51,381 bases of DNA from a virus, in the IMG/VR virus record IMGVR_UViG_3300045988_079259, positions 1-51,381 of that record. One strand, 5' to 3'. Position numbers and translations under genes: made by a program. The first letter of the stretch is position 1, and each line of letters opens with the position of its first letter. Below the pieces are notes generated by a model, which saw only the letters and a program-made list of their open reading frames with translations, ran no database searches and had not been told where the DNA came from. This document shows, one piece after another, positions 120 to 48,790 of this stretch.

Positions 120-549
120 TGTCGTATTGCCCCCACTCGTTAGGTATGCCGAGATAAGGAGTAGGGTCTACGGATTCACCGTTTTTGCGGACCTCAAAGT
201 GACAGTGCGAGCCGAAGGAGTAGCCGGTGTTGCCCTCGATTCCGACCACGTCCCCCGCCTTGACCTTTTGACCTACTTTGACTTTGCGGGAAGCCATGTG
301 ACACATAAAAATCTTAAGTCCGTCCGGCGTGTCGATGCGAATGTAGTTGCCCCACTGCCATGTGAGATTAGACTTGTCCGTGATGATTGTCGACGAGCCG
401 ATAACTCCGTCACAAGGCGCAACAAGCGTTTTGTCCGTGCCGCTGAGGTCTACGCCCTTGTGATAGTCTCGCTGTCCGTTGAGCGTGCGCCAGCCGAAGT
501 GTGATGTGAGTGTGACCTTGCCGCTCTTGTAAGGCAGATTCATTTTCAT
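1..549 (-). CDS. endolysin, N-terminal part: M23/LytM-type metallopeptidase domain (the gene wraps the circular junction and continues in 50657..51381)
   Basis: The minus frame is open from ATG 549 to the window edge: MKMNLPYKSGKVTLTSHFGWRTLNGQRDYHKGVDL...GNTGYSFGSHCHFEV. It carries the HxxxD and HxH zinc motifs of M23 peptidases. It is in frame with the 50657..51355 ORF through the 119-bp overlap and has an ATGA overlap with the upstream gene. Confidence 0.8.
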   Translation of the reverse strand, partial: MKMNLPYKSGKVTLTSHFGWRTLNGQRDYHKGVDLSGTDKTLVAPCDGVIGSSTIITDKSNLTWQWGNYIRIDTPDGLKIFMCHMASRKVKVGQKVKAGDVVGIEGNTGYSFGSHCHFEVRKNGESVDPTPYLGIPNEWGQYDIKSAPKKPTVYKDSYDKDGITYTRAKDFAIIYHDADKRKG

Positions 550-16121: not shown

Positions 16122-16766
16122 TTATTTTCTTTCTATAGGTACGAGATAACATCTGCAATGCCAGTGCTGCTTGTCGGGCGCTTCGTTAATAGGGAATATT
16201 TCTCCGTCAAGCGGCTTGCAAATCTCGCATACCTTTTCATCCTCTTGCGTTACCCACATCACATACTCAACTCCCGCGTCCTTGTATGCTCTGAGCGCCG
16301 TCTCGTCAGTCACTATATCGGCGTATTGGGCGGTCATATTCGACCATAGGCTTACTGCACGTCTCCACTCGCTGTTAACGTCTGAACGTGTCCTGAGAGC
16401 TTCTGAAAGCCTGTCGCGCTTTCTTAAGACTTCGTTCTCGTATTCGTACTTTGTTACGGAATTCGGAGACGAGAGGACAGTCTCAACAAGGGTCTTTTTT
16501 GTTTTTGCGGAAATTTTTCCGATGTCCTTGTAACCGTATCGGCTTACTTCTTCGCCTATTTCTTCATATATGGCAAAGGCAAGTTCTAACATCGTGTCCC
16601 GTAAATCGCTGTCAAGGTTCTTGTAAAGCGTCGCGACGGTCTTTATAACATGAAGCTCGTCGAATTTAGCAAGCCTTATTGAGTACTTAGCTTTTTCAAA
16701 CCGCCGTATTGTCTTCTTCCGCAGTATTTCTATCGCTCTGTCCGTCGTTATGTACCGTTCTTGCAT
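16122..16766 (-). CDS. head morphogenesis protein (SPP1 gp7 / Mu F-like)
   Basis: The C-terminal motif VCEICKPLDGEIF...HWHCRCYLVP is typical of the family. AAGGAG RBS before ATG 16766. Overlaps the portal 3' end. Confidence 0.75.
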   Translation of the reverse strand: MQERYITTDRAIEILRKKTIRRFEKAKYSIRLAKFDELHVIKTVATLYKNLDSDLRDTMLELAFAIYEEIGEEVSRYGYKDIGKISAKTKKTLVETVLSSPNSVTKYEYENEVLRKRDRLSEALRTRSDVNSEWRRAVSLWSNMTAQYADIVTDETALRAYKDAGVEYVMWVTQEDEKVCEICKPLDGEIFPINEAPDKQHWHCRCYLVPIERK

Positions 16767-18219
16767 TCTCAAGCTCCTTTTCTAAGCTGTTTTCAAGCTC
16801 GGACTGTGCTTCTTCATACCACTCCATACCGCGCTGATATGCGTTCTCTACATCTGTAAACAAACCAGAAATGTCGTAAGCATCGCGCGGATGAACCTTT
16901 TCGTTGTTGAGCAGTTCACAAAGAACCTGTGCTTTCGATTGAATGTCGGTGAGGTTTTCGCGGGTAAACTGAATCTTGACGTCAGTCGGGTCAAGGTCGA
17001 GAACACCCTTGTCTTTGTAAATTTTGAGAATCAGCTTCAGAATCTCTCTTTCTGAACGCGCAAATAGCTTTTCAGTGTCGTTTGCTCTCGCGGAAGCGTC
17101 CTGCCACCCGTTGCGGAATCTCGTTCCCATGCCCGTGTCTGCCGCGGCTGAATCTCCGGCTCTTGTCGGCATACCCGTTATTTCATCAATGTAGTCATAC
17201 AGCGCGTCTATTTCCGTCTGAACGCCCGTCTGAGAGATTTCGGAGGATATGCGGTAAACCTTTGCTTCCGTTCCCTGACCGCTTCTGATGCAGATACACT
17301 GACCGCCCCTTGCAAGCTCCTTGTATGTGTTCTCGTCGATTTCGCAGTTTTGGAACACGTCATAGGCGTTCACAAAGTCAACAACATTGTCAACACGAGC
17401 GGATTCAAGAGTGTTTATCATGTTGATAGGCGAGAGAACCGTCTCAAACGCTCCTAAACGAGCTTCATTCAGCGGATATTCCACTATCGGAACGCGCCCG
17501 AAGTCGTAAGCAAGCCAGTCCGCAATATCGTTACCCTTTACGGTGTATCTTCCTTCCGGCACATAAACGTAGTAAATGAGGTTATCGTCCTCGTCGTACT
17601 GTTTCAGTACACCCGCGAGAGGTTTTCTGCCAATGCCCGAAGAGTAGATAACAAACGCTTCTCTCGGGTCAAGGGAATAAAGAGCTGCGGGACTGCCGTC
17701 TTTCTCGTTGTCGGGGTCGGGAAGAACCATCCTCGGTTCAACTCCGCAGATGTGCATCCAGTCGGAGCACTCTTTGTCCTTTGATTCTTTTCCCTCGGAA
17801 GTCATAAGAACGTTCAGATAAGCTACCTTGTCGGATATATCCTCTTTTCCGTTCGCCGCTACATACTGAATGGGAGAACTGAGGAAGAACGAGGATTTAA
17901 AAGTAACTATCTTGTTCGGAAGGTTGATAGTGACCTTGTTGTTGTTGTCGGGTCTTACGGTTTTGTCTTTATAGCGGATATCCATTATTCCGCGATAAAC
18001 GTCATATAAGTAATTTATTTCCGCGACATTTGCGCTGTCGAAACCGAGCGAATCTTCAAGCACGGACACAACGTTGTCGGCGGTTATTCTTTGTTTATTC
18101 GTTAGTATCTTTCGCCGACCATGAAGGCTATCACAAGTAGTAAGGCGAACAATATCATTTTCAAGCACGTGAAAAACCTCCGTGTAAACAAAAATAGGGA
18201 CTACCCGTATGTTTTCCAT
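16696..18219 (-). CDS. portal protein (SPP1 gp6-like)
   Basis: 507-aa ORF downstream of the terminase; size and synteny fit. The exact start is uncertain. Confidence 0.8.
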   Translation of the reverse strand: MENIRVVPIFVYTEVFHVLENDIVRLTTCDSLHGRRKILTNKQRITADNVVSVLEDSLGFDSANVAEINYLYDVYRGIMDIRYKDKTVRPDNNNKVTINLPNKIVTFKSSFFLSSPIQYVAANGKEDISDKVAYLNVLMTSEGKESKDKECSDWMHICGVEPRMVLPDPDNEKDGSPAALYSLDPREAFVIYSSGIGRKPLAGVLKQYDEDDNLIYYVYVPEGRYTVKGNDIADWLAYDFGRVPIVEYPLNEARLGAFETVLSPINMINTLESARVDNVVDFVNAYDVFQNCEIDENTYKELARGGQCICIRSGQGTEAKVYRISSEISQTGVQTEIDALYDYIDEITGMPTRAGDSAAADTGMGTRFRNGWQDASARANDTEKLFARSEREILKLILKIYKDKGVLDLDPTDVKIQFTRENLTDIQSKAQVLCELLNNEKVHPRDAYDISGLFTDVENAYQRGMEWYEEAQSELENSLEKELENARTVHNDGQSDRNTAEEDNTAV

Positions 18220-18257
18220 ACGAATAGCCCCTATCGGCTCTTACTGCAACCCGATTG

Positions 18258-18440
18258 TTACAGCGTTTTTATAGTGTATTTAGCTTTTCTCGAAGCGGTT
18301 ATTTCAAGTATAGTGACCTCTTCGCGCGATTTCTTTATTTTAACGTCATTACCACGCTCTAAAATCTCGTTGATTATAAGAAGCGCATCTTCTTTGACGT
18401 ACTTGAGACGGTGCGCGTGTTTCTCTTCTTCCATAGCCAC
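18258..18440 (-). CDS. hypothetical small protein
   Basis: 60-aa ORF between terL and the portal gene. GAGGTG lies just upstream; the start may be ATG 18434. Confidence 0.45.
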   Translation of the reverse strand: MAMEEEKHAHRLKYVKEDALLIINEILERGNDVKIKKSREEVTILEITASRKAKYTIKTL

Positions 18441-18441
18441 C

Positions 18442-20112
18442 TCAATAAGGTCTTTGTATTACTCTTACCGTCTGCGTCTCAAACGATTGAATGAAGTCTG
18501 AAAGCATTGAGAATGCGTCGGGTACATCGTCATGTGCGTTTCTTCCCGCCATAGTATAACTGCAAAGCATACCGAGCGCGCGTTTATACTCTTTGTTGTT
18601 CTTTGTAACACTATTGTCCTTGAAAAGGAAATGCTCTTTGACAAATGGAGAATCAACTATAATTCGCGTAGCCTTGTTTGCTGTCGAATATTTTGTAGTG
18701 ATTCTTGTTATGCCGCCGCGCGTTTTTACCTCTTTTTGAACCTTTTCCGCGATTTTTCCACCCGCAGAGTTTGATTCAAAACGGCTCAATTTGACTTTGT
18801 GCCGTAAAAGAATCTCGACAAGCCTTGTTTCAACTATTTCGGGATTATTGTTGTCGCAGATTATTTCTTCGATGTAGAAGTCATTGCCGTACTGGTAAGC
18901 AATAGGCATTACGCAGTAGTCCGCTCCTTTGTCCTTTGTGTCGCAAACCGATATGATAGCATCCGGCGAATCCGAGGGAAGTTCAAAATAACGTCTGAGT
19001 TCGTCCTCGTTGTAGAGAAGTCCCTCGCGCTCTATAGGTTGATTCATGAACAAAGCTCGCCACGAGCAGTCGTCAAGGTTGTTTTTCATGTCCTCGAAGT
19101 ACGCCTTGTCAAAGCCGACACCATAGCGGTAATTGAAGTTGCTTTCGCCGTCTTCGTCAACCGCAGGCATTACGAGAAACTGAGCTTTCGGAGAATCCGC
19201 GTACATTGTTTGCAGTCTCCCTATAGGGTCATGCACCGACCATCTTGTAGCAATGTGCAGTTCTTTGCAGTTTAGTTTCTTTCTCGATTTCAAATCGTTC
19301 GTGTAAGCCGTCCAAAGCTTGTCAAGTCGGTCAATGCTCAATGCTTCCTCAATGCCCGACACAAGGTCATCAGCGGTCAGAAGCTTTTCACAACGTGTAG
19401 CACCTGTAAGGGAAGCACCTATAGCACGGCAGGTCAAAGACGAAAACCGGTGTTTCTTGCCGAGGTCTATTGTCTGCTCCTTTGCGTTGGTTATAATCGT
19501 GCCTGCCGCAGGATACACGTCGTGCCATAAATAATCAGGGTCTGACAGAATGCTGTTTACGCCGTCATATATTGAGTTAGTGAGCGTTCCCGAATGTCCC
19601 GAAGCAAGGGAACAGCTGTCGGGAAACGCGCCTATCATCATCGAATGCAGGAAAATTTCAAGCGTGCTTTTGCCGCAACCGGGCGGAACAGATATAGACA
19701 ATATGTCAAGTTCTCCGTCCACAAGCTTTTGCATTGCGCGGCAGACAGGTTCAAGCTGCTTCCTTCGCGGAATCCAGAATCTTTTCTCGGGGTCTCGCTG
19801 AAGCTCTATATACTGCATATAGCTGTCGAGCCTTAATCCTTGCGCTTCAAGCAAAAGCACAGCCTTAAAAAGAGAACTTGCGTCTTTCGATTTATTTTGT
19901 ATAATTCGCTCGGTGCAATATCTCTTCAAAGTCTCGGAATACCGCCACTTTTCAGCGCAGTTATTCATCGAAGACAGCACCGAATACAATGCCGTATAAT
20001 GTTTCATGTTCTCAGGCTCTGCTTTGATGTGAGAAAGAATATTTTCCGCTACGTCAAGATAGCGCCTATCAGTGTGTTCGCCCGCTATTATCTCCGCTTG
20101 CAGTGCTTCCAT
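18442..20112 (-). CDS. terL: terminase large subunit
   Basis: 556 aa with a Walker A-like VPPGCGKST motif and a C-terminal nuclease-sized region. GAGGTGA RBS. Confidence 0.85.
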   Translation of the reverse strand: MEALQAEIIAGEHTDRRYLDVAENILSHIKAEPENMKHYTALYSVLSSMNNCAEKWRYSETLKRYCTERIIQNKSKDASSLFKAVLLLEAQGLRLDSYMQYIELQRDPEKRFWIPRRKQLEPVCRAMQKLVDGELDILSISVPPGCGKSTLEIFLHSMMIGAFPDSCSLASGHSGTLTNSIYDGVNSILSDPDYLWHDVYPAAGTIITNAKEQTIDLGKKHRFSSLTCRAIGASLTGATRCEKLLTADDLVSGIEEALSIDRLDKLWTAYTNDLKSRKKLNCKELHIATRWSVHDPIGRLQTMYADSPKAQFLVMPAVDEDGESNFNYRYGVGFDKAYFEDMKNNLDDCSWRALFMNQPIEREGLLYNEDELRRYFELPSDSPDAIISVCDTKDKGADYCVMPIAYQYGNDFYIEEIICDNNNPEIVETRLVEILLRHKVKLSRFESNSAGGKIAEKVQKEVKTRGGITRITTKYSTANKATRIIVDSPFVKEHFLFKDNSVTKNNKEYKRALGMLCSYTMAGRNAHDDVPDAFSMLSDFIQSFETQTVRVIQRPY

Positions 20113-20962: not shown

Positions 20963-21592
20963 TCAAGTGTCGCTTATGTCCTTGCTGTCGTATATCTCTA
21001 TTACATCATCAAGTTTTGGCGCATCGATTTGCTCTGTGGGCGTTTGTGCGACCTCCAAGCGGGTATTGTTTGAAAAGCCTTGCGAACTGTTGTTAAGCAA
21101 AAACATCGCGTATACGGGATTGAGAGAGCCGTCAGCACCTTTTTGGACGGTGTTTGCGGCTATGAGCGTCTTCATTCTTTTTATAATTGTAGAATGACGT
21201 TGACCTATACGCGACTTAGTCCCCCACTCTATAAGTGTAACGCGGTCAACTCCGAGAGCAACGGCGAGACTTGCCAACGAGGGGAAAGCGTGGTAACGGC
21301 TGCACCATGTAATATAGTCGTTGCAGCGCTGCTCGACCTCGTCCGCGCTGTCCAGGTCAACAGCCGGCAGCGTCATAAGCTCTTGCAGAGCGGTAAGCGT
21401 ATCGGGGTTTACTTCTGTAAGCGGCGTTCTGGGGTCTGAACATCCGTTTAATTCACACTCCAAACGTTCCCTCGCCGCTATTGCTTTGTTGTGGTTGCTT
21501 GTCTTGCGTCCTTGCTTCTTCCGTTTCTTCGGTTGTTCTACATTTGTAAGTTCTTCCGGCGTCTCAAAATCTGCTATATGCTCAACTTTCAT
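20963..21592 (-). CDS. terS: terminase small subunit
   Basis: 209 aa with a basic N-terminus (KKRKKQGRK) and an HTH-like segment (FPSLASLAVALGVDRVTLIEW). First gene of the late block; GGGAGAAAG RBS. Confidence 0.7.
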   Translation of the reverse strand: MKVEHIADFETPEELTNVEQPKKRKKQGRKTSNHNKAIAARERLECELNGCSDPRTPLTEVNPDTLTALQELMTLPAVDLDSADEVEQRCNDYITWCSRYHAFPSLASLAVALGVDRVTLIEWGTKSRIGQRHSTIIKRMKTLIAANTVQKGADGSLNPVYAMFLLNNSSQGFSNNTRLEVAQTPTEQIDAPKLDDVIEIYDSKDISDT

Positions 21593-21834
21593 TTTGCTTT
21601 CTCCCTTCCGTATAATTTATTATATAACTATATTATAACAATAATATTGTATATTAACATAATCCCATTTATTACTATAATATAACTATATTGGTAATAG
21701 TGATATATTAAGGCTGATTTCCTTCTTCTTTCCTTTTCTTCCTCTCCCCCCCTCCCCCCGGATTGATTATAGCACTAAACTATACGTTTGTCAAGTGTGG
21801 AGCGGGAGTAAATTATGTCTAAAATATTAACGGC

Positions 21835-22242: not shown

Positions 22243-22311
22243 TAGGCATTGTGCATAAAATATTGTCTTAAACATTGTGCAATATTTAACTTAAAATATT
22301 GCTAAATACTA

Positions 22312-22340
22312 TTGACAAGTATTGCGCAATGTGATATAAT
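22312..22340 (+). promoter_or_regulatory. consensus sigma-A promoter (TTGACA-17-TATAAT) with a palindrome ATTGCGCAAT in the spacer
   Basis: ttgacaagtattgcgcaatgtgatataat. Related ATTGTGCA(A)T sites lie at 22247..22256 and 22273..22283. Confidence 0.8.
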
Positions 22341-22405
22341 ATAAGTGTCAAAGGGAGAGCAAAAGCAACTCCCGAAAAAACAAAAAAATCAAGGAGAAAA
22401 GAAAA

Positions 22406-22612
22406 ATGAAAATCATCAACAAAATCACAAGCGAGACAGTAGCAGAAATCCTTGGCGGCAGCAACCTCACACTTGACCAGGCACTCGACCTCATCGGCGC
22501 GGTAAACGTTGACGACATGGACAACGACCTCTACAGCAACGACGGCGACAACATCATCACTCCCGACGGTAAGAGATGGTGGTACGAAAACCTCGACTAC
22601 ATCGCAGACTAA
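22406..22612 (+). CDS. hypothetical small acidic protein
   Basis: 68-aa, Asp-rich ORF with an AAGGAG RBS. First gene after the 22312 promoter. Confidence 0.65.
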   Translation: MKIINKITSETVAEILGGSNLTLDQALDLIGAVNVDDMDNDLYSNDGDNIITPDGKRWWYENLDYIAD

Positions 22613-22615
22613 CCC

Positions 22616-22671
22616 CTCCGCCTGATGAGAGCTGGACGGCGACCAGCCGAAACCCCGCAAGGGGTCGCGGA
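22616..22671 (+). ncRNA. hammerhead self-cleaving ribozyme (type I topology); predicted cleavage after C22666
   Basis: UCCGC-CUGAUGA-G(A)GCUGG-ACGGCGA-CCAGCC-GAA-ACCCC-GCAA-GGGGU-C|GCGGA. The full conserved core is present (C3-A9, G12-A14, A15.1-U16.1, GUC site). Stem III has a GNRA loop, stem II has 6 bp and stem I has 5 bp. Confidence 0.85.
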
Positions 22672-22705
22672 AAGCCAATGAATGAAAAACGAAAGGAATT
22701 AAAAA

Positions 22706-22918
22706 ATGAACACTTACACTATAACTTTTGAACTCACGGAGAACGAGTTAAGACTGCTTAACGCCGCTCTCATCGCAGAAGGAAATGCACTGAGGAGACA
22801 GGCAAAAGCTGAAACTTTTGAACTCTCCGCAGAAATCTGTATAATGCAGAGCAACTTAATGTACGCTCTCTCCGACAAGGTCGAGCGGTACAAGAAAAAT
22901 GCAGGGATTGAGGACTAA
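22706..22918 (+). CDS. hypothetical small protein
   Basis: 70-aa helical ORF with an AAAGGAA RBS. Confidence 0.6.
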   Translation: MNTYTITFELTENELRLLNAALIAEGNALRRQAKAETFELSAEICIMQSNLMYALSDKVERYKKNAGIED

Positions 22919-23008
22919 TCCCTATGCAGAGTGGCGGGAGCAATCCCGTTAATGCGGTCTGGCAGACGGTCACAAACCCCGACAGCTGAAAAGAAAGGAA
23001 CAAAATAA

Positions 23009-23269
23009 ATGAAAAAACTTACGACATTAACTTTAATAATCATGCTCGGTATAGTCTCCTGCTCCCCCATCAAGCAGGAGCGTTACCAGTGCGGTACATA
23101 CGTTACCGTCAACAGCGGCTGCGGCTACATCGTCACCGCCGACGGCAATGTATGGGGCTACTTCAGCCGGTCTATCCCGTCCGGCTCTTCCGTCCTCGTC
23201 ACCATATCCGACGAGGGAACGGAGAAAGTAGAGGACGACGTAATCACAAATGTTGTCCCAAAAAAATAA
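23009..23269 (+). CDS. putative lipoprotein
   Basis: 86 aa. Signal peptide with a lipobox-like LGIVSC (MKKLTTLTLIIMLGIVSCSP). Confidence 0.6.
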   Translation: MKKLTTLTLIIMLGIVSCSPIKQERYQCGTYVTVNSGCGYIVTADGNVWGYFSRSIPSGSSVLVTISDEGTEKVEDDVITNVVPKK

Positions 23270-23288
23270 AAAACTTTTGCAAAACCTA

Positions 23289-23317
23289 TTGACAAATGCG
23301 CCAATGGGTGGTATAAT
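23289..23317 (+). promoter_or_regulatory. consensus sigma-A promoter (TTGACA-17-TATAAT)
   Basis: ttgacaaatgcgccaatgggtggtataat. It is followed by the same leader start (ataagtgt.aaag) as the 22312 promoter. Confidence 0.8.
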
Positions 23318-23360
23318 ATAAGTGTAAAGAGAAGAGCGAAAAAAGCAAAGGAGAAATATC

Positions 23361-23657
23361 ATGAAAAAACAGTATTATGTTTGGTACGGCAATTTCGGGA
23401 ACGTTTACAATCTCTACTGGGCGGAGACCCCCGAACAAATCAAGCTCGCCGAAGAAAACGGCTACACCCGCATCACCCGCCGTCAGGCGGAGAAGCTGTG
23501 CGCCGAGGAAAACAACCGCCGTAAGTTTGACGGCAATTTCTCCTGCTACGCCGACAACCTCATCTTCCCCGTCGATTGCGACGAATGCGAGCGCGACCTG
23601 CTGAACAACCGTAGCCTCTATGTTGATGGCTACATCGTAAACCGCAAAGTCGGCTGA
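23361..23657 (+). CDS. hypothetical protein
   Basis: 98-aa ORF with an AAAGGAG RBS. Confidence 0.6.
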   Translation: MKKQYYVWYGNFGNVYNLYWAETPEQIKLAEENGYTRITRRQAEKLCAEENNRRKFDGNFSCYADNLIFPVDCDECERDLLNNRSLYVDGYIVNRKVG

Positions 23658-23787
23658 GCGACTATAAACAGGGTTCAAGCTCGGTGCGTTCCCTCTTCGG
23701 AGGGAGGTATCAAAATTTAAAAAAATCCCTTACGCATCTATACTTTCTTGTGTAATATGCTCATAGGGAATTATTAGGAGGATTATC

Positions 23788-24534
23788 ATGTCTCATAAAT
23801 TTTATTGCACCATTAATGGTGCTCAGTCATCTTTCACACCCTGTTCCGCGTTCTTCCCGTCTCTCGGAGAAACCGAGAGCGACCGCACATCCGCCTACGT
23901 TGAGGAAATCCGCATCGGCGGCACATCCTACCTCTGCTTGTGGCGGGAGGAGGATGTAGACTTTTTCGCCGACCGCTTCTGGGACGACGGCGAGACAGCT
24001 CCCGAAAGATGGGGTTCGGATGCCGTCTCCGACCTCGCCACTGTCATTTTCGACGACGGCAAGCCGCTCGACCTCTCCTCTTTTCACCCCGTCGGAGATA
24101 TTATTTTCTCCGAATACATCAGGGCGGGCTTAGACGACTACGCTTTCCTTGAGGACGTGGAGGCTACCCTTAACTTCCTCCACGGCACTCCGAGAGCTGC
24201 CGAAGCCGATTCCGTTGTCGACGGTGTTTCTTCTTCGCGCGTTTCAGAGCTGGCAAAGCTGGCGAATGGACAGAATCGCGCGGTACTCTCCGAGCTGACA
24301 CTTGCTCTCTCTCGTCAGCTCCATACTCTCGGCGTTAAGTCATACGCCGATAACTTTACGGAGAGCGATATCCCCACTCTCCGCGAGTTGGCAAAGATGC
24401 CACGCCGATTCTTCGAGCCTCCCACCCTCTTCTGGAGGGATGTGGATGAGGTTTACCCTGATCCACAGGACGACCCGCGTTACGTCTCGATGGACGAGGT
24501 TATCAAAAACATCGTGAAAGGAGAATCAAAATGA
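23788..24534 (+). CDS. hypothetical acidic protein
   Basis: 248-aa Asp/Glu-rich ORF with an AGGAGG RBS. Confidence 0.65.
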   Translation: MSHKFYCTINGAQSSFTPCSAFFPSLGETESDRTSAYVEEIRIGGTSYLCLWREEDVDFFADRFWDDGETAPERWGSDAVSDLATVIFDDGKPLDLSSFHPVGDIIFSEYIRAGLDDYAFLEDVEATLNFLHGTPRAAEADSVVDGVSSSRVSELAKLANGQNRAVLSELTLALSRQLHTLGVKSYADNFTESDIPTLRELAKMPRRFFEPPTLFWRDVDEVYPDPQDDPRYVSMDEVIKNIVKGESK

Positions 24535-24881
24535 TTTATTTCATAAGTACCACAAATCACGAGTGGTGGGGACGCACCCTCGTGGCATTTGAGCATAACG
24601 GTGATTTCCACGTCTCCCCAGCGTTTGAGGGGATGGGAATCACCGCCGACACCGCAAGTGTCACCCTTGACGGCAAGTCTTATCCCGTCGAAACCGACAG
24701 CAATTACGCCGCGGGGTACTTTACGGACGAAGAACTCGCCTTCATGATTCGCTGTCAAGGTGAGTTTGACAGCGGCGAGTGGGACGATGTTCTCACCGAC
24801 GAGCTCGTCAAAAGAGCAGTCATGCAAGACTGCGAAGCGGTTTACCGCAACGCCGCAGACATTCTCGGCGTAGAAATCTAA
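24531..24881 (+). CDS. hypothetical protein
   Basis: 116-aa ORF, ATGA-coupled to the upstream gene. Confidence 0.6.
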   Translation: MIYFISTTNHEWWGRTLVAFEHNGDFHVSPAFEGMGITADTASVTLDGKSYPVETDSNYAAGYFTDEELAFMIRCQGEFDSGEWDDVLTDELVKRAVMQDCEAVYRNAADILGVEI

Positions 24882-24890
24882 GAAGTGAAC

Positions 24891-24936
24891 GAATAAAGCA
24901 TATCTGGTTTGGTATGCTTTATTCGGCATATTTTTA
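24891..24936 (+). terminator. rho-independent terminator
   Basis: 12-bp stem gaataaagcata / tatgctttattc, then ggcatattttt. Confidence 0.6.
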
Positions 24937-25312: not shown

Positions 25313-25547
25313 AAAATCGGCGAAACGGAAAAGCGGCGTATGCATCGCGACGCTCAGCACGGCAAAGTAACGGCATAGCTAAGTCTGTCGGGAAAAGCGA
25401 AGGAAGAGCAAGGCGAGGCAAAGAATCGAATGGCGAGGCGACGGAATAGAATCGTACTGTATAGTTGGAAATGTCGAGAGGAGCAGTGGGATGGCACTGC
25501 AATCAATAGACGGAAAAGCAGTGAAAAGGAAAAGAAAGGAATAAAAA
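25313..25547 (+). repeat. purine-rich noncoding element, copy 1 (paralog of 36256..36488)
   Basis: T-poor, A/G-rich, and has no ORF with an RBS. It contains 3 copies of ACGGAA and shares the strings gaatcgaatgg, acggaaaagc and acggaataga with copy 2. Confidence 0.6.
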
Positions 25548-26198
25548 ATGGCAGAATTTGTAGCAAAAGAAATGAAAGTTAGATCGACGTTTGTCGAGGA
25601 AGTGTTAGGCTAGTCCCCATCAAGCGAGAAAATCTATAGCGAGTACATAGCAAGCAAAGCACCGGACTCGCTTGACACGGAGGACGAAATAGAAGCAATC
25701 GGAAACGAGGAAGACAGAGGCGTGACAGTCTTCCCAAAACAAGACGGTAAACCCGGCGTTTGGGATTACCAAATCAAAGGCGCGTTTAAGGACGCGTGCG
25801 GAGGTCTTTCCCGCGTCAAAACGACGGAATCAGCCAAAATCAAGGCTTACAAAAAGGTAATTGATAAGCTGATATTTGTCGAGCCGCGTTTCGCGCCGTA
25901 TCAAGTCAACGGCGAACTCGGCATATGCGAGCGACCGCTGAGGACGAGCGGCGCGACGGGAGAAAGAACAGCCCTTGCCGCGTCGGAAACTCTTCCCGCC
26001 GGTTCTTCCGTCGAATTCACAATCCTGCTGTTCGATGAAAAACTCGAACCGGCAGTCCGCGAATGGCTTGATTACGGCAAGTACAGCGGTTTCGGACAGT
26101 GGAGAAATTCCGGAAAAGGAAGACATCTGTGGGACGAACTCGACACAGACGGCAATATAATCGGTGGGAACAATGAGTACGTTAAGACAAAGGAATAA
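25548..26198 (+). pseudogene. hypothetical protein gene interrupted by one in-frame TAG (25611..25613); nonsense mutation or read-through
   Basis: ATG 25548 has an AAAGGAA RBS. After 21 codons comes TAG, and the same frame then continues into the 25722..26198 ORF (SPSSEKIYSEYIASKAPDSL...VTVFPKQDGKPGVWDYQIKG...). Confidence 0.5.
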
Positions 26199-26787
26199 GT
26201 CTCTTTACTGGGCATGGAAAGCCATGAAACAGCGGACACAGAACCCTAAATGTCATGCTTACAAAAATTATGGAGCAAGAGGCATCTCGGTTTGCGCGGA
26301 ATGGCAAGCGTTCGAGCCGTTTTGCGAATGGGCGTTGACAAATGGCTATCAACAAGGTCTTGACCTCGACCGCGTAGACAACGACGGAAATTATTGCCCC
26401 GAAAATTGCCGGTGGATAACGCGTCAAGAGAACATAAATAATCGCCGAAAGACGTTGTTCTTTACCGTCGACGGAAAAAGGCTTTCGTGCTCTTCATGGG
26501 CAGAGTTGTCGGGCATTCCACGCGGTTCAATCAAGGTTTGGGCTGAGACAAAAGGATTTTCTTACGCAGAAAAACGCATCAAAGACGCATTGGTCAACGG
26601 ATACGTGCCCAAGGATTACGGGAATCAACGCAAGGCGGTTCGCCATGTTGAGAGTGGTAGAGTTTTCCGCTCGGTTAGAGAGGCTGCTGATTTTTTCCGC
26701 ATTAACAGCGGAGCACTTTCACATTGCATTAACCATACAGGCGGCAAAACCCGTAAAGGCAGATTCACCTGGGAAGAAATCAAATAA
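26173..26787 (+). CDS. homing-endonuclease-like DNA-binding protein (free-standing)
   Basis: The N-terminal pattern YWAWKAMKQRTQNPKCHAYKNYGARGISVCAEW...LDRVDNDGNYCPENCRWITRQENINN and a C-terminal FRSVREAADFFRINSGALSHCI HTH-like module are typical of phage homing-endonuclease relatives. Confidence 0.6.
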   Translation: MSTLRQRNKSLYWAWKAMKQRTQNPKCHAYKNYGARGISVCAEWQAFEPFCEWALTNGYQQGLDLDRVDNDGNYCPENCRWITRQENINNRRKTLFFTVDGKRLSCSSWAELSGIPRGSIKVWAETKGFSYAEKRIKDALVNGYVPKDYGNQRKAVRHVESGRVFRSVREAADFFRINSGALSHCINHTGGKTRKGRFTWEEIK

Positions 26788-38199: not shown

Positions 38200-38694
38200 A
38201 TGAGTTACAAACGCTACTGGGAGCAAAACAAGGCTCGCCGACCATTCCCACCATTATATGAAGCCGCAAAAGCATACGGGAACGAGATATATTATCCAAC
38301 ACCCGAATATGTCAAATCAGGCTCATGCAGATGGTGTGGGAATCCGATTACAAACAAGCGCAGGAAATCATTTTGCTGTGATGAATGCCGAGATGAATTT
38401 GAACGAATGACAGTGTGGAATCGTGGCAGAGACGCATATTCTTTGCGGATTCTATACCGCGACAATTTCACTTGTCAGGACTGCGGAGAATTTCACGCTT
38501 TCAAAAACGAATACGGAATCTACATACCGATAGATGACGGAAAACTAAACGTACATCATATAGTGCCTGTATCAGAAGGCGGCGGGGATGAACCGACAAA
38601 CCTTATTACACTGTGTGTTAGTTGCCACTTAAAACGGCATGGACGAAAGAATCATGAGAAAGAATGCGACGAAAGTGATGCTCGAACATATTAA
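38200..38694 (+). CDS. HNH endonuclease
   Basis: 164 aa with CQDCGE...LNVHHIVPVSEGGGDEPTNLITLCVSCHLKRH. Confidence 0.85.
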   Translation: MSYKRYWEQNKARRPFPPLYEAAKAYGNEIYYPTPEYVKSGSCRWCGNPITNKRRKSFCCDECRDEFERMTVWNRGRDAYSLRILYRDNFTCQDCGEFHAFKNEYGIYIPIDDGKLNVHHIVPVSEGGGDEPTNLITLCVSCHLKRHGRKNHEKECDESDARTY

Positions 38695-47520: not shown

Positions 47521-48790
47521 TCAATAGTTGCCGCAGCCGGAACAGCCGGAATTGCAGCCATAGTTGCCGTACTGCCAAGGCGCGGGAACGTTGAATGCGG
47601 GTACGGGCGCCTTACAGCCGAGCTGACTTACAAGATACTGATTCTGCGCCTGCTGTGATGCGGCAAGCTCAAGTCCAAATATCCTCTGTGTCTGCGCTGC
47701 AATCTGTGCGTCCTTCGCCGCTATCTCCTGCGCCGTCAGTCTGTCGGATATGCCACGGAATCCGCTATTCATCGCGTCGATGATATCGCGGGTGTTGTTA
47801 GCGGCGTTGGTGTTAATCGCGCAAGTGTCGGTTGCCATGCGGTAGCCAACATCGGCAAATCCGCGCTCCATTGCTCTGCCGTTGTCGCAGCAGCACTGCT
47901 GGAGCTGTGTCGCAAGAGCCGCCTGTCCGCGCTCAACACCGTTAAATCCCTGCATCATTGCGACGTTATTTGCGTTAAATCCCTGCTGTGTCTGATAGCC
48001 GAGGTTGCAAACCGCATTGTCGACGCCGTGGAATCCGTTGAGGATGGATGTGTTAAGCCCGTAAAATCCGTCGCAAAGTCCCTCTTGTACGCCGCGGACG
48101 GAATTCTCAAGCCCGTTGAATCCAAACTCGCTCTGGAGGTCTGCGCGTGTTAATCCGCCCTGAGTGCCTGCCGCCATTACGTAGGGGAGTGCGCCCATGC
48201 CCGAGGAATCGCCGTTGTTTCCGCCGAAGCCGTTACGACCCCAGCCGAATATGATAGCGAGGATGATTACCGCCAATTTGTTCACGTCAAAGCGCAACCC
48301 CTGACGCAGTCTTGCCGTTATAGGTAGACTTCTGACGTTTTCACGCCAGTGCAGACTATATCTTCACCTGTATTTCTACAGGGCAACATTTTTCTTCCGT
48401 CATTAGCTTACGGTTTTACTCTCCGTCAAGGAGATAGTCGTTGAGGGTCTTCCATGCCTTAAAAAGGTTTAGGACTGTCCCTGCTAAACACCCATTGTAG
48501 AAGCACTTAGGACTGACACCGTGCCAGTTTTTTTATTTCGCCATATGCCATCTCACTGTTTTTTCTGCTTTCGCGCCGTTCAGTTTGCCGTTTCCGACTG
48601 CTGTTTAGGTAGTGAGCTTTAGGGATTAAAAGCATTTAACGTTGAGTTTACACCGATTACTCGATATAAAGGGTAGCCGTAGTTATAATCCTACTTTTGC
48701 CCAAAGTCCTTCATTTCCGAAGAAGCCGCCGTCACGGTTGTTGCTGTCTCCCTGACCCGCAAGGAAACCTGTCAAAAGTTCGTTGCCCAT
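47521..48790 (-). CDS. Gly/Asn-rich membrane protein gene split by a group I intron (exon 1 48693..48790, exon 2 47521..48292; 289 aa after splicing)
   Basis: Exon 1 (AGGAG RBS) encodes MGNELLTGFLAGQGDSNNRDGGFFGNEGLWAKV. It joins in frame to FDVNKLAVIILAIIFGWGRNGFGGNNG... under the P1/P10 model. The C-terminus is GCNSGCSGCGNY. Confidence 0.65.
48293..48692 (-). ncRNA. group I self-splicing intron (subgroup IA-like, no internal ORF)
   Basis: Core elements: CAACGACTATCTCC (48433..48441 region) and GAAGATATAGTCTGC (48354..48362 region) match the P7 strands of T4 td-type introns, and there is a CCTGTA-GAAA-TACAGG hairpin. P1 pairs AAAAGU with GCUUUU through a U.G pair. P10 pairs UUUGACG with CGUUAAA. 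The terminal nucleotide is G. Confidence 0.8.

What the first reader, a model, noticed from the sequence alone, without database searches (positions are those of the whole stretch)
22616..22671. Canonical hammerhead ribozyme between two small early/accessory ORFs
Four nt after the stop of the 68-aa ORF, the plus strand reads UCCGC CUGAUGA G-A-GCUGG ACGGCGA CCAGC-C GAA A-CCCC GCAA GGGG-U C GCGGA. Every invariant hammerhead core position is present: CUGAUGA, the G10.1-C11.1 pair, GAA, the A15.1-U16.1 pair and a GUC cleavage triplet. Stem III is closed by a GNRA loop, stem II by a 7-nt loop, and stem I is open, which gives type I topology. Self-cleavage would cut the polycistronic mRNA after C22666, uncoupling the first ORF from the downstream ones. 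Hammerheads are known in bacteriophage and prophage DNA, but their roles there are still unclear.
Basis: partly seen in the sequence, partly recalled or inferred. Interest (0 to 1): 0.65.

Follow-up and report, generated by a model that had tools for sequence, protein, structure and literature searches.

The report
Phage hammerhead ribozyme between two genes
The sequence is a genuine self-cutting hammerhead RNA lying between two small genes of a gut phage, next to two other kinds of self-cutting RNA; this kind of element is already known and its role is still unproven.

Summary
Window 22617..22671 (+), one base inside the reported start, carries every invariant hammerhead core base, three helices and an open stem I (type I). 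The predicted cut follows C22666.

- A covariation-supported 3-bp pseudoknot joins loop II (GGC 22638-40) to the 3' tail (GCC 22674-76).
- A bulged A22630 at the base of stem II makes the element not fully "canonical".
- A twister-P5 (22925..22982) and a pistol (23648..23712) lie downstream on the same strand.

Rfam scores the element only 14.2 bits (cut-off 34). A model built from 12 phage hammerheads outside its clade scores it 81.9 bits (E ~4e-21). Across 126 distinct relatives, 98.5% of pair cells are standard pairs, and 14 of 16 pairs show compensatory changes.

Within the clade the stop-to-start spacer is about 83% identical, while the flanking genes are unrelated. The hammerhead-twister slot holds five unrelated 68-84 aa genes.

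The most likely role is cutting the promoter P1 transcript into single-gene mRNAs. That role is inferred, not shown.

Pseudoknotted hammerheads flanking phage genes, and clusters of hammerhead, twister and pistol, are already published. This is a new member of a known kind.

The parts
22617..22676 (+). Complete type I hammerhead ribozyme, including the 3' tail that forms the pseudoknot
   Evidence: Sequence. Only descriptor hit in the window. Model R1 scores 22615..22683 at 81.9 bits.
22617..22621 (+). Stem I 5' strand UCCGC, pairing with GCGGA 22667-22671 (5 bp, open-ended, hence type I)
   Evidence: All 5 stem I pairs show compensatory changes across 126 distinct relatives; 98.9% of cells are paired.
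22622..22628 (+). Core C3 U4 G5 A6 U7 G8 A9
   Evidence: Sequence. Aligned to the RF00163 core.
22629..22648 (+). Stem II: G10.1(22629)-C11.1(22648), bulged A22630, GCUGG 22631-35 paired with CCAGC 22643-47, loop II ACGGCGA 22636-42
   Evidence: Five of 6 stem II pairs covary. The bulge or extra-base variant recurs in 49 of 97 relatives.
22638..22640 (+). Pseudoknot, 5' side: GGC in loop II, pairing with GCC 22674-22676
   Evidence: Paired in 12 of 12 seeds that were not chosen for it, with UA:6 CG:4 GC:2 at one pair. In 126 relatives the three pairs hold in 91-98%, with CG:54 UA:41 AU:7 GC:2 at one pair.
22649..22651 (+). Core G12 A13 A14
   Evidence: Sequence.
22652..22665 (+). Stem III: A15.1 CCCC / GGGG U16.1, closed by the GCAA tetraloop 22657-60
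   Evidence: A15.1-U16.1 is invariant in 126 of 126 relatives and the other stem III pairs covary. Within the clade the loop varies between GCAA, GUAA and UCCG.
22666..22667 (+). Predicted scissile bond: C17 (22666) | G1.1 (22667)
   Evidence: Position follows from the hammerhead consensus (established knowledge). Cleavage was not tested.
22674..22676 (+). Pseudoknot, 3' side: GCC in the tail, two A residues after stem I
22610..22708 (+). Conserved intergenic unit: ORF1 stop, hammerhead, A-rich leader, AGGA ribosome-binding site (22694-97), ORF2 start
   Evidence: The unit has median 83% identity among 12 clade members. The flanking 150 nt of coding DNA are at the random baseline.
22312..22340 (+). 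Promoter-like site P1 (TTGACA, 17 nt, TG-TATAAT; 12 of 12) upstream of ORF1
22406..22612 (+). ORF1, 68 aa, function unknown
   Evidence: Homologues at 81-91% identity in 5 viral contigs. No Pfam or PHROGs family.
22706..22918 (+). ORF2, 70 aa, function unknown; the cargo of the hammerhead-twister slot
22925..22982 (+). Twister-P5 ribozyme; predicted cut U22950|A22951
   Evidence: RF02684 at 40.8 bits against a cut-off of 37.6. P1 covaries among relatives. The U-A cleavage site is taken from PMC6154101.
23289..23317 (+). Promoter-like site P2, a near-duplicate of P1 (12 of 12)
23648..23712 (+). Pistol ribozyme, overlapping the ORF4 stop codon; predicted cut G23707|U23708
   Evidence: RF02679 at 62.8 bits against a cut-off of 34.5. 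The G-U cleavage site is taken from PMC6154101.
24890..24925 (+). Intrinsic-terminator-like hairpin (15-bp stem plus T run) that closes the block

Best explanation
Window 22617..22676 encodes a type I hammerhead self-cleaving ribozyme held in its active shape by a pseudoknot. It lies in the 93-nt spacer between ORF1 and ORF2 of a tailed gut phage whose host is probably a Clostridia bacterium. Transcription from promoter P1 produces an RNA in which stem I (5 bp), stem II (G-C, bulged A, 5 bp) and stem III (5 bp, GCAA loop) surround the conserved core. The 3-bp pairing between loop II (GGC) and the tail (GCC) holds stems I and II side by side. As in other hammerheads, the 2'-OH of C22666 attacks its own 3' phosphate. 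This leaves ORF1 mRNA ending in the folded ribozyme body with a 2',3'-cyclic phosphate. It also leaves ORF2 mRNA starting with 5'-OH-GCGGAAAGCC, an almost unstructured leader that carries the ribosome-binding site. Stem I and the pseudoknot are both short, so the two products should separate quickly. Together with the twister after ORF2 and the pistol after ORF4, cleavage turns the P1 and P2 transcripts into single-gene or two-gene mRNAs. Each small gene's stability and translation would then no longer depend on its neighbours. On this view the ribozyme spacer acts as a portable 'stop, cut, ribosome-binding site' insulator between interchangeable gene cassettes. Shown here: the sequence, the fold supported by covariation, family membership, the conserved position and the variable neighbouring genes. 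Inferred: catalysis itself, and the effect on gene expression.
For: All invariant core positions are present. It is the only descriptor hit in the window, against 0 of 200 shuffles at equal stem lengths. It scores 81.9 bits, E 3.7e-21, against model R1, which was built from 12 hammerheads outside its clade. On 126 distinct relatives 98.5% of cells are paired, against 75.6% in shuffles; 14 of 16 pairs show compensatory changes; slid-partner controls give 25-56%. The pseudoknot is supported on A2 and A3 and by a comparison of cognate with non-cognate loop-tail pairings (3.43 against 2.61 bp). The hammerhead secondary structure (-22.4 to -23.2 kcal/mol) is within 2-3 kcal/mol of the MFE before the pseudoknot is counted, and the leader of the 3' product is unstructured (-0.8 kcal/mol). 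In the clade the stop codon lies 2-12 nt before stem I, and the next start codon, where one could be called, lies 26-43 nt after it. The spacer is conserved at 83% while the flanking genes are at the random baseline. The hammerhead-twister slot holds five unrelated genes. P1, P2 and a terminator frame the block. Twister and pistol pass the Rfam cut-offs on the same strand, and their order is kept in relatives. Published precedent: pseudoknotted hammerheads of all three types, and tandem prophage hammerheads that cleave about 2 kb polycistronic RNAs in vitro and in E. coli (PMC3088659).
Against: No cleavage assay or RNA-end data exist for this element. Rfam's own hammerhead model scores it below its cut-off (14.2 against 34). 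The nearest-neighbour MFE is a different fold. The bulged A22630 sits beside the G10.1-C11.1 pair, close to a region important for catalysis, and could slow the reaction. The effect on expression could go either way. The pattern I used to collect relatives fixed the core and stem III, so for the pattern-selected sequences those parts are not independent evidence.
Confidence: 0.8

Rival explanations
1. The conserved spacer works mainly at the DNA level. It would be a shared stretch of homology at which related phages recombine and swap the small genes on either side, with ribozyme activity secondary.
For: The stop-to-start unit is 83% identical, while both flanks are at the random baseline. The clade has at least 5 different upstream and 9 different downstream genes. 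Five unrelated genes occupy the hammerhead-twister slot, and L061 carries a deletion remnant there.
Against: A DNA recombination site does not need RNA-level compensatory changes, yet these are abundant in stems I-III and in the pseudoknot. The invariant bases are exactly the hammerhead catalytic core. The two roles are not mutually exclusive.
Confidence: 0.1
2. Cleavage is conditional rather than constitutive. Ribosomes terminating at the ORF1 stop codon, 4 nt before stem I, or some other factor, would control whether the hammerhead folds, so that cutting reports on ORF1 translation.
For: The stop codon lies 2-12 nt before stem I in the clade, and at a median of 2.5 nt in the 66 of 97 broader relatives that have an upstream ORF. 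The pistol overlaps the ORF4 stop codon. A competing fold that sequesters the 5' strand of stem I is the predicted MFE.
Against: The tight spacing may simply reflect phage genome compaction. The alternative hairpin is weak, and I did not test whether it is conserved. No ligand-binding or switch domain is evident.
Confidence: 0.07
3. The ribozyme pair excises an RNA cassette. The 284-nt fragment 22667..22950 between the hammerhead and twister cuts carries 5'-OH and 2',3'-cyclic-phosphate ends, which an RtcB-type ligase (or hammerhead reversal) can join. ORF2 RNA could therefore be circularised or spliced.
For: Single genes bounded by two ribozymes recur in relatives. The end chemistry follows from established ribozyme mechanisms.
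Against: Perreault et al. looked for circular or spliced products from prophage hammerhead arrays and found none (PMC3088659). PHROGs recognised no RNA ligase or end-healing enzyme among the 39 proteins of this phage that were scanned. Other loci carry the hammerhead without a twister.
Confidence: 0.04
4. The element is an inactive relic or a chance match to the hammerhead consensus.
For: It falls below the Rfam cut-off. It has a bulged base next to the core. The MFE is a different fold.
Against: 0 of 200 shuffles match at equal stem lengths. It scores 81.9 bits against the out-of-clade model. It is conserved in at least 13 contigs while the flanking DNA is unrelated. The bulge and extra-base variants recur with different stem sequences.
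Confidence: 0.03

Closest known systems
Pseudoknot-stabilised hammerhead ribozymes of prophages and metagenomes (Perreault et al. 2011, PLoS Comput Biol, PMC3088659)
   Same: Consensus core. A pseudoknot rather than a loop-loop contact links stems I and II. The location is intergenic in phage DNA. Several ribozymes flank single genes whose identity varies. Processing of polycistronic transcripts was proposed, and tandem sets were shown to cleave.
   Different: That paper's main pseudoknot example is type II (loop I with the tail after stem II). Here the topology is type I, with loop II pairing to the tail after stem I. This element also has a bulged base at the base of stem II. [quoted passage not shown] This particular sequence and phage are not described there.
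Rfam RF00163 Hammerhead_1 (type I)
   Same: Same topology and core. The model aligns end to end over 22616..22672.
   Different: It scores 14.2 bits against a gathering score of 34. Rfam at its gathering scores reported none of the roughly 39 hammerheads that model R1 finds in 142 kb of related loci.
Clusters of self-cleaving ribozymes near phage genes (Weinberg et al. 2015, as described in PMC4604425 and PMC6765202)
   Same: Hammerhead, twister and pistol lie within 1.1 kb on one strand next to phage genes. That association is how pistol was discovered.
   Different: Nothing essential. This locus adds a fixed order (hammerhead, then twister, then pistol) that is conserved in relatives.
Viroid hammerhead with an extra nucleotide in the catalytic core (De la Pena & Flores 2001, J Biol Chem, listed in the references of PMC6155905)
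   Same: A natural hammerhead that tolerates one extra base in the core region (title seen; that the site is between A9 and G10.1 is from my own memory of that work).
   Different: That case is a type III viroid ribozyme. Here the extra base is either a U after A9 (36 of 97) or a bulge after G10.1 (13 of 97, the window's type) in phage type I hammerheads.
Engineered ribozyme insulators such as RiboJ
   Same: A self-cleaving hammerhead placed before a ribosome-binding site, so that the downstream gene always has the same short 5' leader whatever lies upstream.
   Different: RiboJ is synthetic, and the ribozyme stays on the downstream RNA. Here the ribozyme body stays on the upstream product, and only 5 nt of stem I plus the tail go downstream.

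Membership tests
Hammerhead ribozyme | Invariant core: C3 U4 G5 A6 N7 G8 A9, G12 A13 A14, A15.1-U16.1, H17 (not G) | tested here: met
   CUGAUGA 22622-28, GAA 22649-51, A22652-U22665, C22666. A15.1-U16.1 is invariant in 126 of 126 relatives.
Hammerhead ribozyme | Three helices radiating from the core, supported by covariation | tested here: met
   Stems I, II and III are 98.9%, 96.8% and 100% paired. 14 of 16 pairs have compensatory changes. 0 of 500 shuffles reach the observed values.
Hammerhead ribozyme | A standard pair at 10.1-11.1 directly next to the core (usually G-C) | tested here: met
   G22629-C22648 can pair, but A22630 is then bulged. In the register used for the relatives this column reads GC:103, other:18. 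The deviation is recurrent.
Hammerhead ribozyme | [quoted passage not shown] | tested here: met
   Loop II GGC 22638-40 pairs with tail GCC 22674-76, with covariation (CG, UA, AU, GC) and sliding controls of 16-40%.
Hammerhead ribozyme | Site-specific self-cleavage 3' of position 17, giving 2',3'-cyclic phosphate and 5'-OH ends | not testable with these tools
   This needs in vitro transcription or RNA-end mapping.
Hammerhead type I topology | Stem I open; stems II and III closed by loops | tested here: met
   Order of elements on the strand and the RF00163 alignment.
Rfam RF00163 Hammerhead_1 (database criterion, not a biological one) | Score at or above the gathering threshold of 34 bits | tested here: not met
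   14.2 bits. The model also misses the related phage hammerheads, so this reflects what the model covers.
   81.9 bits, E 3.7e-21, full length 1-69. The seeds score 71.6-85.8 bits.
Twister ribozyme, type P5 (RF02684), neighbouring element | Rfam gathering score; conserved P1/P2/P4 and the UAA cleavage region | tested here: met
   40.8 bits against 37.6. Relatives score 39.7-47 bits. P1 covaries.
Pistol ribozyme (RF02679), neighbouring element | Rfam gathering score; conserved hairpin, AUAAA linker and G-U cleavage step | tested here: met
   62.8 bits against 34.5. Relatives score 50-65 bits.

The most novel reading that the evidence does not exclude
The ribozyme-containing spacers may be the junctions of a cassette system. 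Short, conserved 'stop, ribozyme, ribosome-binding site' units would both insulate expression at the RNA level and mark the points at which unrelated small accessory genes are swapped between phages. A gene bounded by two ribozymes, such as ORF2 between the hammerhead and the twister, would then be a plug-in unit, possibly also released as an RNA that can be ligated or circularised.
Probability: 0.12. Interest if true: 0.7.

Novelty: new member of a known kind. Interest (0 to 1): 0.3.

Why it matters
The role of the many self-cleaving ribozymes in phages and bacteria is still an open question (PMC6765202, PMC6155905). This locus does not answer it, but it offers a compact natural test case. 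Two strong promoters, three different ribozyme classes and a terminator lie within 2.6 kb. Relatives keep the ribozymes and exchange the genes between them. On the practical side, Rfam's curated cut-offs miss this whole group of phage type I hammerheads, so routine annotation under-reports them.

Tried and rejected
- Rfam at gathering score and at E<=10 over 4 kb gave no hammerhead. Only a 111-nt scan showed the sub-threshold alignment.
- Single-sequence folding does not return the hammerhead as the MFE; z-scores are -1.2 and -0.6. That is uninformative for a junction held by tertiary contacts. The energy of the hammerhead fold was computed separately.
- blastn of 22300-24600 against GenBank phages found nothing.
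- The second-best R1 match, at 252..302 (+), is only a stem plus a tail-like string with no core inside a coding region. I rejected it.
- My first descriptor missed the variant with an extra U after A9. Alignment A1 recovered it.
- I considered a terminator reading of the CCCC-GCAA-GGGG hairpin. It has no T run, and the terminator scan does not list it.
- I looked for an RNA ligase or end-healing enzyme in the phage. PHROGs recognised none among the 39 proteins scanned.
- I suspected that L061 was an 'empty' hammerhead-twister slot. It is a deletion remnant of the L123-type gene.
- Two literature searches for a demonstrated function of phage ribozyme arrays after 2019 found none.

Full report
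**1. The observation**

- The ORF1 stop codon is 22610-12, and four C residues follow it.
- Stem I 5' strand: UCCGC (22617-21).
- Core: CUGAUGA (22622-28).
- Stem II: G22629, A22630, GCUGG (22631-35), loop ACGGCGA (22636-42), CCAGC (22643-47), C22648.
- Core: GAA (22649-51).
- Stem III: ACCCC (22652-56), loop GCAA (22657-60), GGGGU (22661-65).
- C17 is C22666. Stem I 3' strand: GCGGA (22667-71).
- The reported start, 22616, is one base too far 5'.

My own hammerhead descriptor allows any stems and one bulge at the base of stem II.
- It finds this site and no other on either strand of the 51 kb window.
- With lax stem limits it matched 3 of 200 dinucleotide-preserving shuffles.
- At the observed stem lengths it matched 0 of 200.

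**2. Why Rfam alone does not settle it**

- Rfam reports no hammerhead at gathering score, nor at E<=10 in a 4 kb scan.
- In a 111-nt scan RF00163 aligns end to end, but at 14.2 bits against a cut-off of 34. RAGATH-1-hammerhead aligns at 13.1 bits.
- The single-sequence MFE is a different fold.
- The hammerhead secondary structure evaluates at -22.4 to -23.2 kcal/mol against an MFE of -25.4, before any pseudoknot or core tertiary energy is counted.

**3. Relatives**

- The 68-aa and 70-aa flanking ORFs led to seven IMG/VR loci from six contigs. All six contigs carry the element at the same place.
- Two variants occur at the base of stem II: the window's G-A-GCUGG and CUGACGA-U-GGCUGG.
- Loop III changes between the stable tetraloops GCAA, GUAA and UCCG.
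- A pattern that fixes only the core and a CCCC/GGGG stem III found at least 119 stretches in viral contigs.
- Of 107 distinct elements, 97 have at least 4 bp in both stem I and stem II, although the pattern required neither.
- Those 97 include 39 different stem I sequences and 74 different stem II sequences.
- At the base of stem II, 48 are plain, 36 have an extra base (usually U) after A9, and 13 have a one-base bulge after G10.1, as the window does.

**4. Formal test of the structure and of membership**

- Twelve elements outside the window's clade, with the same segment lengths, align without gaps (A2). On A2, 97.4% of pair cells are standard pairs against 81.9% in shuffles (0 of 500 reach the observed value), and 9 pairs show compensatory changes.
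- Model R1, built from those 12, scores the window element at 81.9 bits, E 3.7e-21, full length. The next best match in the window scores 12.9 bits and has no core.
- R1 found 148 hammerheads, 126 of them distinct, in 100 sources (A3). Many have a stem III that the pattern did not select.
- On A3, 98.5% of cells are paired against 75.6% in shuffles. 14 of 16 pairs have compensatory changes. Slid-partner controls give 25-56%. A15.1-U16.1 is invariant.
- Caveat: A3 is fitted to the model's structure, so its counts lean towards that structure. A2 is a gap-free MAFFT alignment and gives the same answer.

**5.

- Loop II GGC (22638-40) is complementary to GCC (22674-76), two A residues after stem I.
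- In the 12 seeds, which were not chosen for this feature, the three pairs are 100% paired. One pair reads UA:6, CG:4, GC:2.
- On A3 the three pairs hold in 91-98% of sequences. One pair reads CG:54, UA:41, AU:7, GC:2. Slid controls give 16-40%.
- A fourth pair is optional and is absent in the window.
- Cognate loop-tail pairings form longer helices than non-cognate ones: 3.43 against 2.61 bp.
- Pseudoknots that hold stems I and II parallel are known in all three hammerhead types. They were shown to be needed for fast cleavage at 0.5 mM Mg2+ (PMC3088659).

**6. Context in the window**

- The window is a tailed phage: gp3-type small terminase at 20963-21592 (-), large terminase at 18442-20112 (-), SPP1-type portal at 16696-18219 (-).
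- Replication and recombination genes lie further on.
- The only bacterial-genome match to the clade's hammerhead is in a Clostridia MAG from cattle colon.
- Layout of the plus-strand block:

| Element | Coordinates | Note |
|---|---|---|
| Promoter P1 | 22312-40 | 12 of 12 match |
| ORF1 | 22406-22612 | 68 aa |
| Hammerhead | 22617-22676 | this finding |
| ORF2 | 22706-22918 | 70 aa |
| Twister-P5 | 22925-22982 | 40.8 bits |
| ORF3 | 23009-23269 | 86 aa |
| Promoter P2 | 23289-23317 | near copy of P1 |
| ORF4 | 23361-23657 | 98 aa |
| Pistol | 23648-23712 | 62.8 bits |
| ORF5 and ORF6 | 23788-24881 | 248 and 116 aa |
| Terminator | 24890-24925 | 15-bp stem plus T run |

- None of the small ORFs has a known function.
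- By homology, the twister cuts at U22950|A22951 and the pistol at G23707|U23708 (site conventions from PMC6154101).

**7. Conserved spacer, variable genes**

- Among clade members the stop-to-start unit (89-107 nt) has median 83% identity. The 150 nt of coding DNA on either side are at 0.59 and 0.56, against a random baseline of 0.57.
- The same hammerhead follows at least five different genes and precedes at least nine.
- The hammerhead-twister slot holds five unrelated genes of 68-84 aa. In L061 it holds only the last 22 codons of the L123-type gene.
- The order hammerhead, twister, pistol is kept in L003, L005, L006, L123 and L025.
- Other phages carry arrays of up to six or seven hammerheads.

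**8. How it most likely works**

The RNA folds after transcription from P1, and the pseudoknot locks stems I and II together. C22666 is then cleaved by the usual hammerhead mechanism.
- ORF1 mRNA keeps the folded ribozyme and a cyclic phosphate at its 3' end.
- ORF2 mRNA begins with a 5'-OH and an unstructured leader (-0.8 kcal/mol).
- The ribosome-binding site AGGA lies 8 nt before the ORF2 AUG.

With the twister and the pistol, the block is cut into single-gene or two-gene mRNAs. This frees each interchangeable gene from its neighbours. The fold and membership are shown; catalysis and the effect on expression are inferred.

The direction of the effect is uncertain. From my own knowledge, not checked here, 5'-OH ends are attacked by RNase J1 in Firmicutes but are protective in E. 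coli.

**9. Comparison with what is known**

Each main feature has precedent.
- Perreault et al. 2011 describe pseudoknotted hammerheads and tandem prophage hammerheads around single genes of varying identity. They propose processing of polycistronic transcripts and demonstrate cleavage.
- The association of hammerhead, twister and pistol near phage genes is the basis on which pistol was discovered.
- An extra core base has a viroid precedent (reference title seen).
- Reviews still list the biological role as unknown. Two searches found no later resolution.

**10. Verdict**

This is a real type I pseudoknotted hammerhead and a new member of a known kind. The increments here are modest:
- the loop II to 3'-tail pseudoknot in this phage subgroup;
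- the frequent extra or bulged base at the base of stem II;
- the failure of Rfam's cut-off to capture the subgroup;
- a measured 'conserved spacer, variable cassette' pattern.

Interest is 0.3.

Noticed in passing
window 22925..22982 (+) and 23648..23712 (+): A twister-P5 ribozyme (40.8 bits) and a pistol ribozyme (62.8 bits) lie downstream of the hammerhead on the same strand, each in a gene-to-gene spacer. The pistol overlaps the ORF4 stop codon by 10 nt.
   Followed up: yes
window 22312..22340 (+), 23289..23317 (+), 21794..21766 (-): Three perfect 12-of-12 sigma-70-type promoter matches with an extended -10 TG. P1 and P2 are near-duplicates, including the first ~30 nt of their leaders.
   Followed up: partly
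window 48332..48679 (-): Group I intron-like match (RF00028) at 32.6 bits, below the cut-off of 50; E 1.9e-06 in a local scan. The hallmark core strings CUCAACGACUA and GAAGAUAUAGUCU are conserved and there is a large internal insertion. The flanking exons were not resolved.
   Followed up: partly
window 18220..18267 (-); also L061 887..934 and L123 57..104: gut-2 RNA motif (RF02990, 48.9 bits) between the portal and large-terminase genes, conserved at the same score in two related contigs. Its function is unknown.
   Followed up: no
L025, L061, L062, L094, L123, L126, L023, L049, L083, L098, L093, L081, L015, L053, L110, L013, L127: Rfam at its gathering scores reports no hammerhead in 142 kb where model R1 finds about 39. 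This phage type I subgroup escapes routine Rfam annotation.
   Followed up: partly
L062 1279..4985; also L024, L047, L066, L067: Dense ribozyme arrays. L062 has a pistol followed by six hammerheads within about 3.7 kb. Several other contigs have six or seven hammerheads each.
   Followed up: partly
L061 5145..5351: The hammerhead and twister are separated by only about 80 nt. That spacer is the 3' remnant (last 22 codons) of the gene that fills the same slot in L123, so a deletion occurred inside a ribozyme-bounded slot.
   Followed up: yes
A3 alignment (148 viral hammerheads) and sample: About half of the sampled phage type I hammerheads carry one extra base at the base of stem II: a U after A9 in 36 of 97, or a bulge after G10.1 in 13 of 97.
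   Followed up: partly
window 26164..26787 (+) and 38200..38694 (+): Two HNH endonuclease genes (PHROGs E 1e-45 and 8e-21). The first lies just downstream of the ribozyme block.
   Followed up: no
window 25313..25721: A gap of about 400 nt in the plus-strand gene series, with no convincing ORF and no Rfam match. It was not examined further.
   Followed up: no
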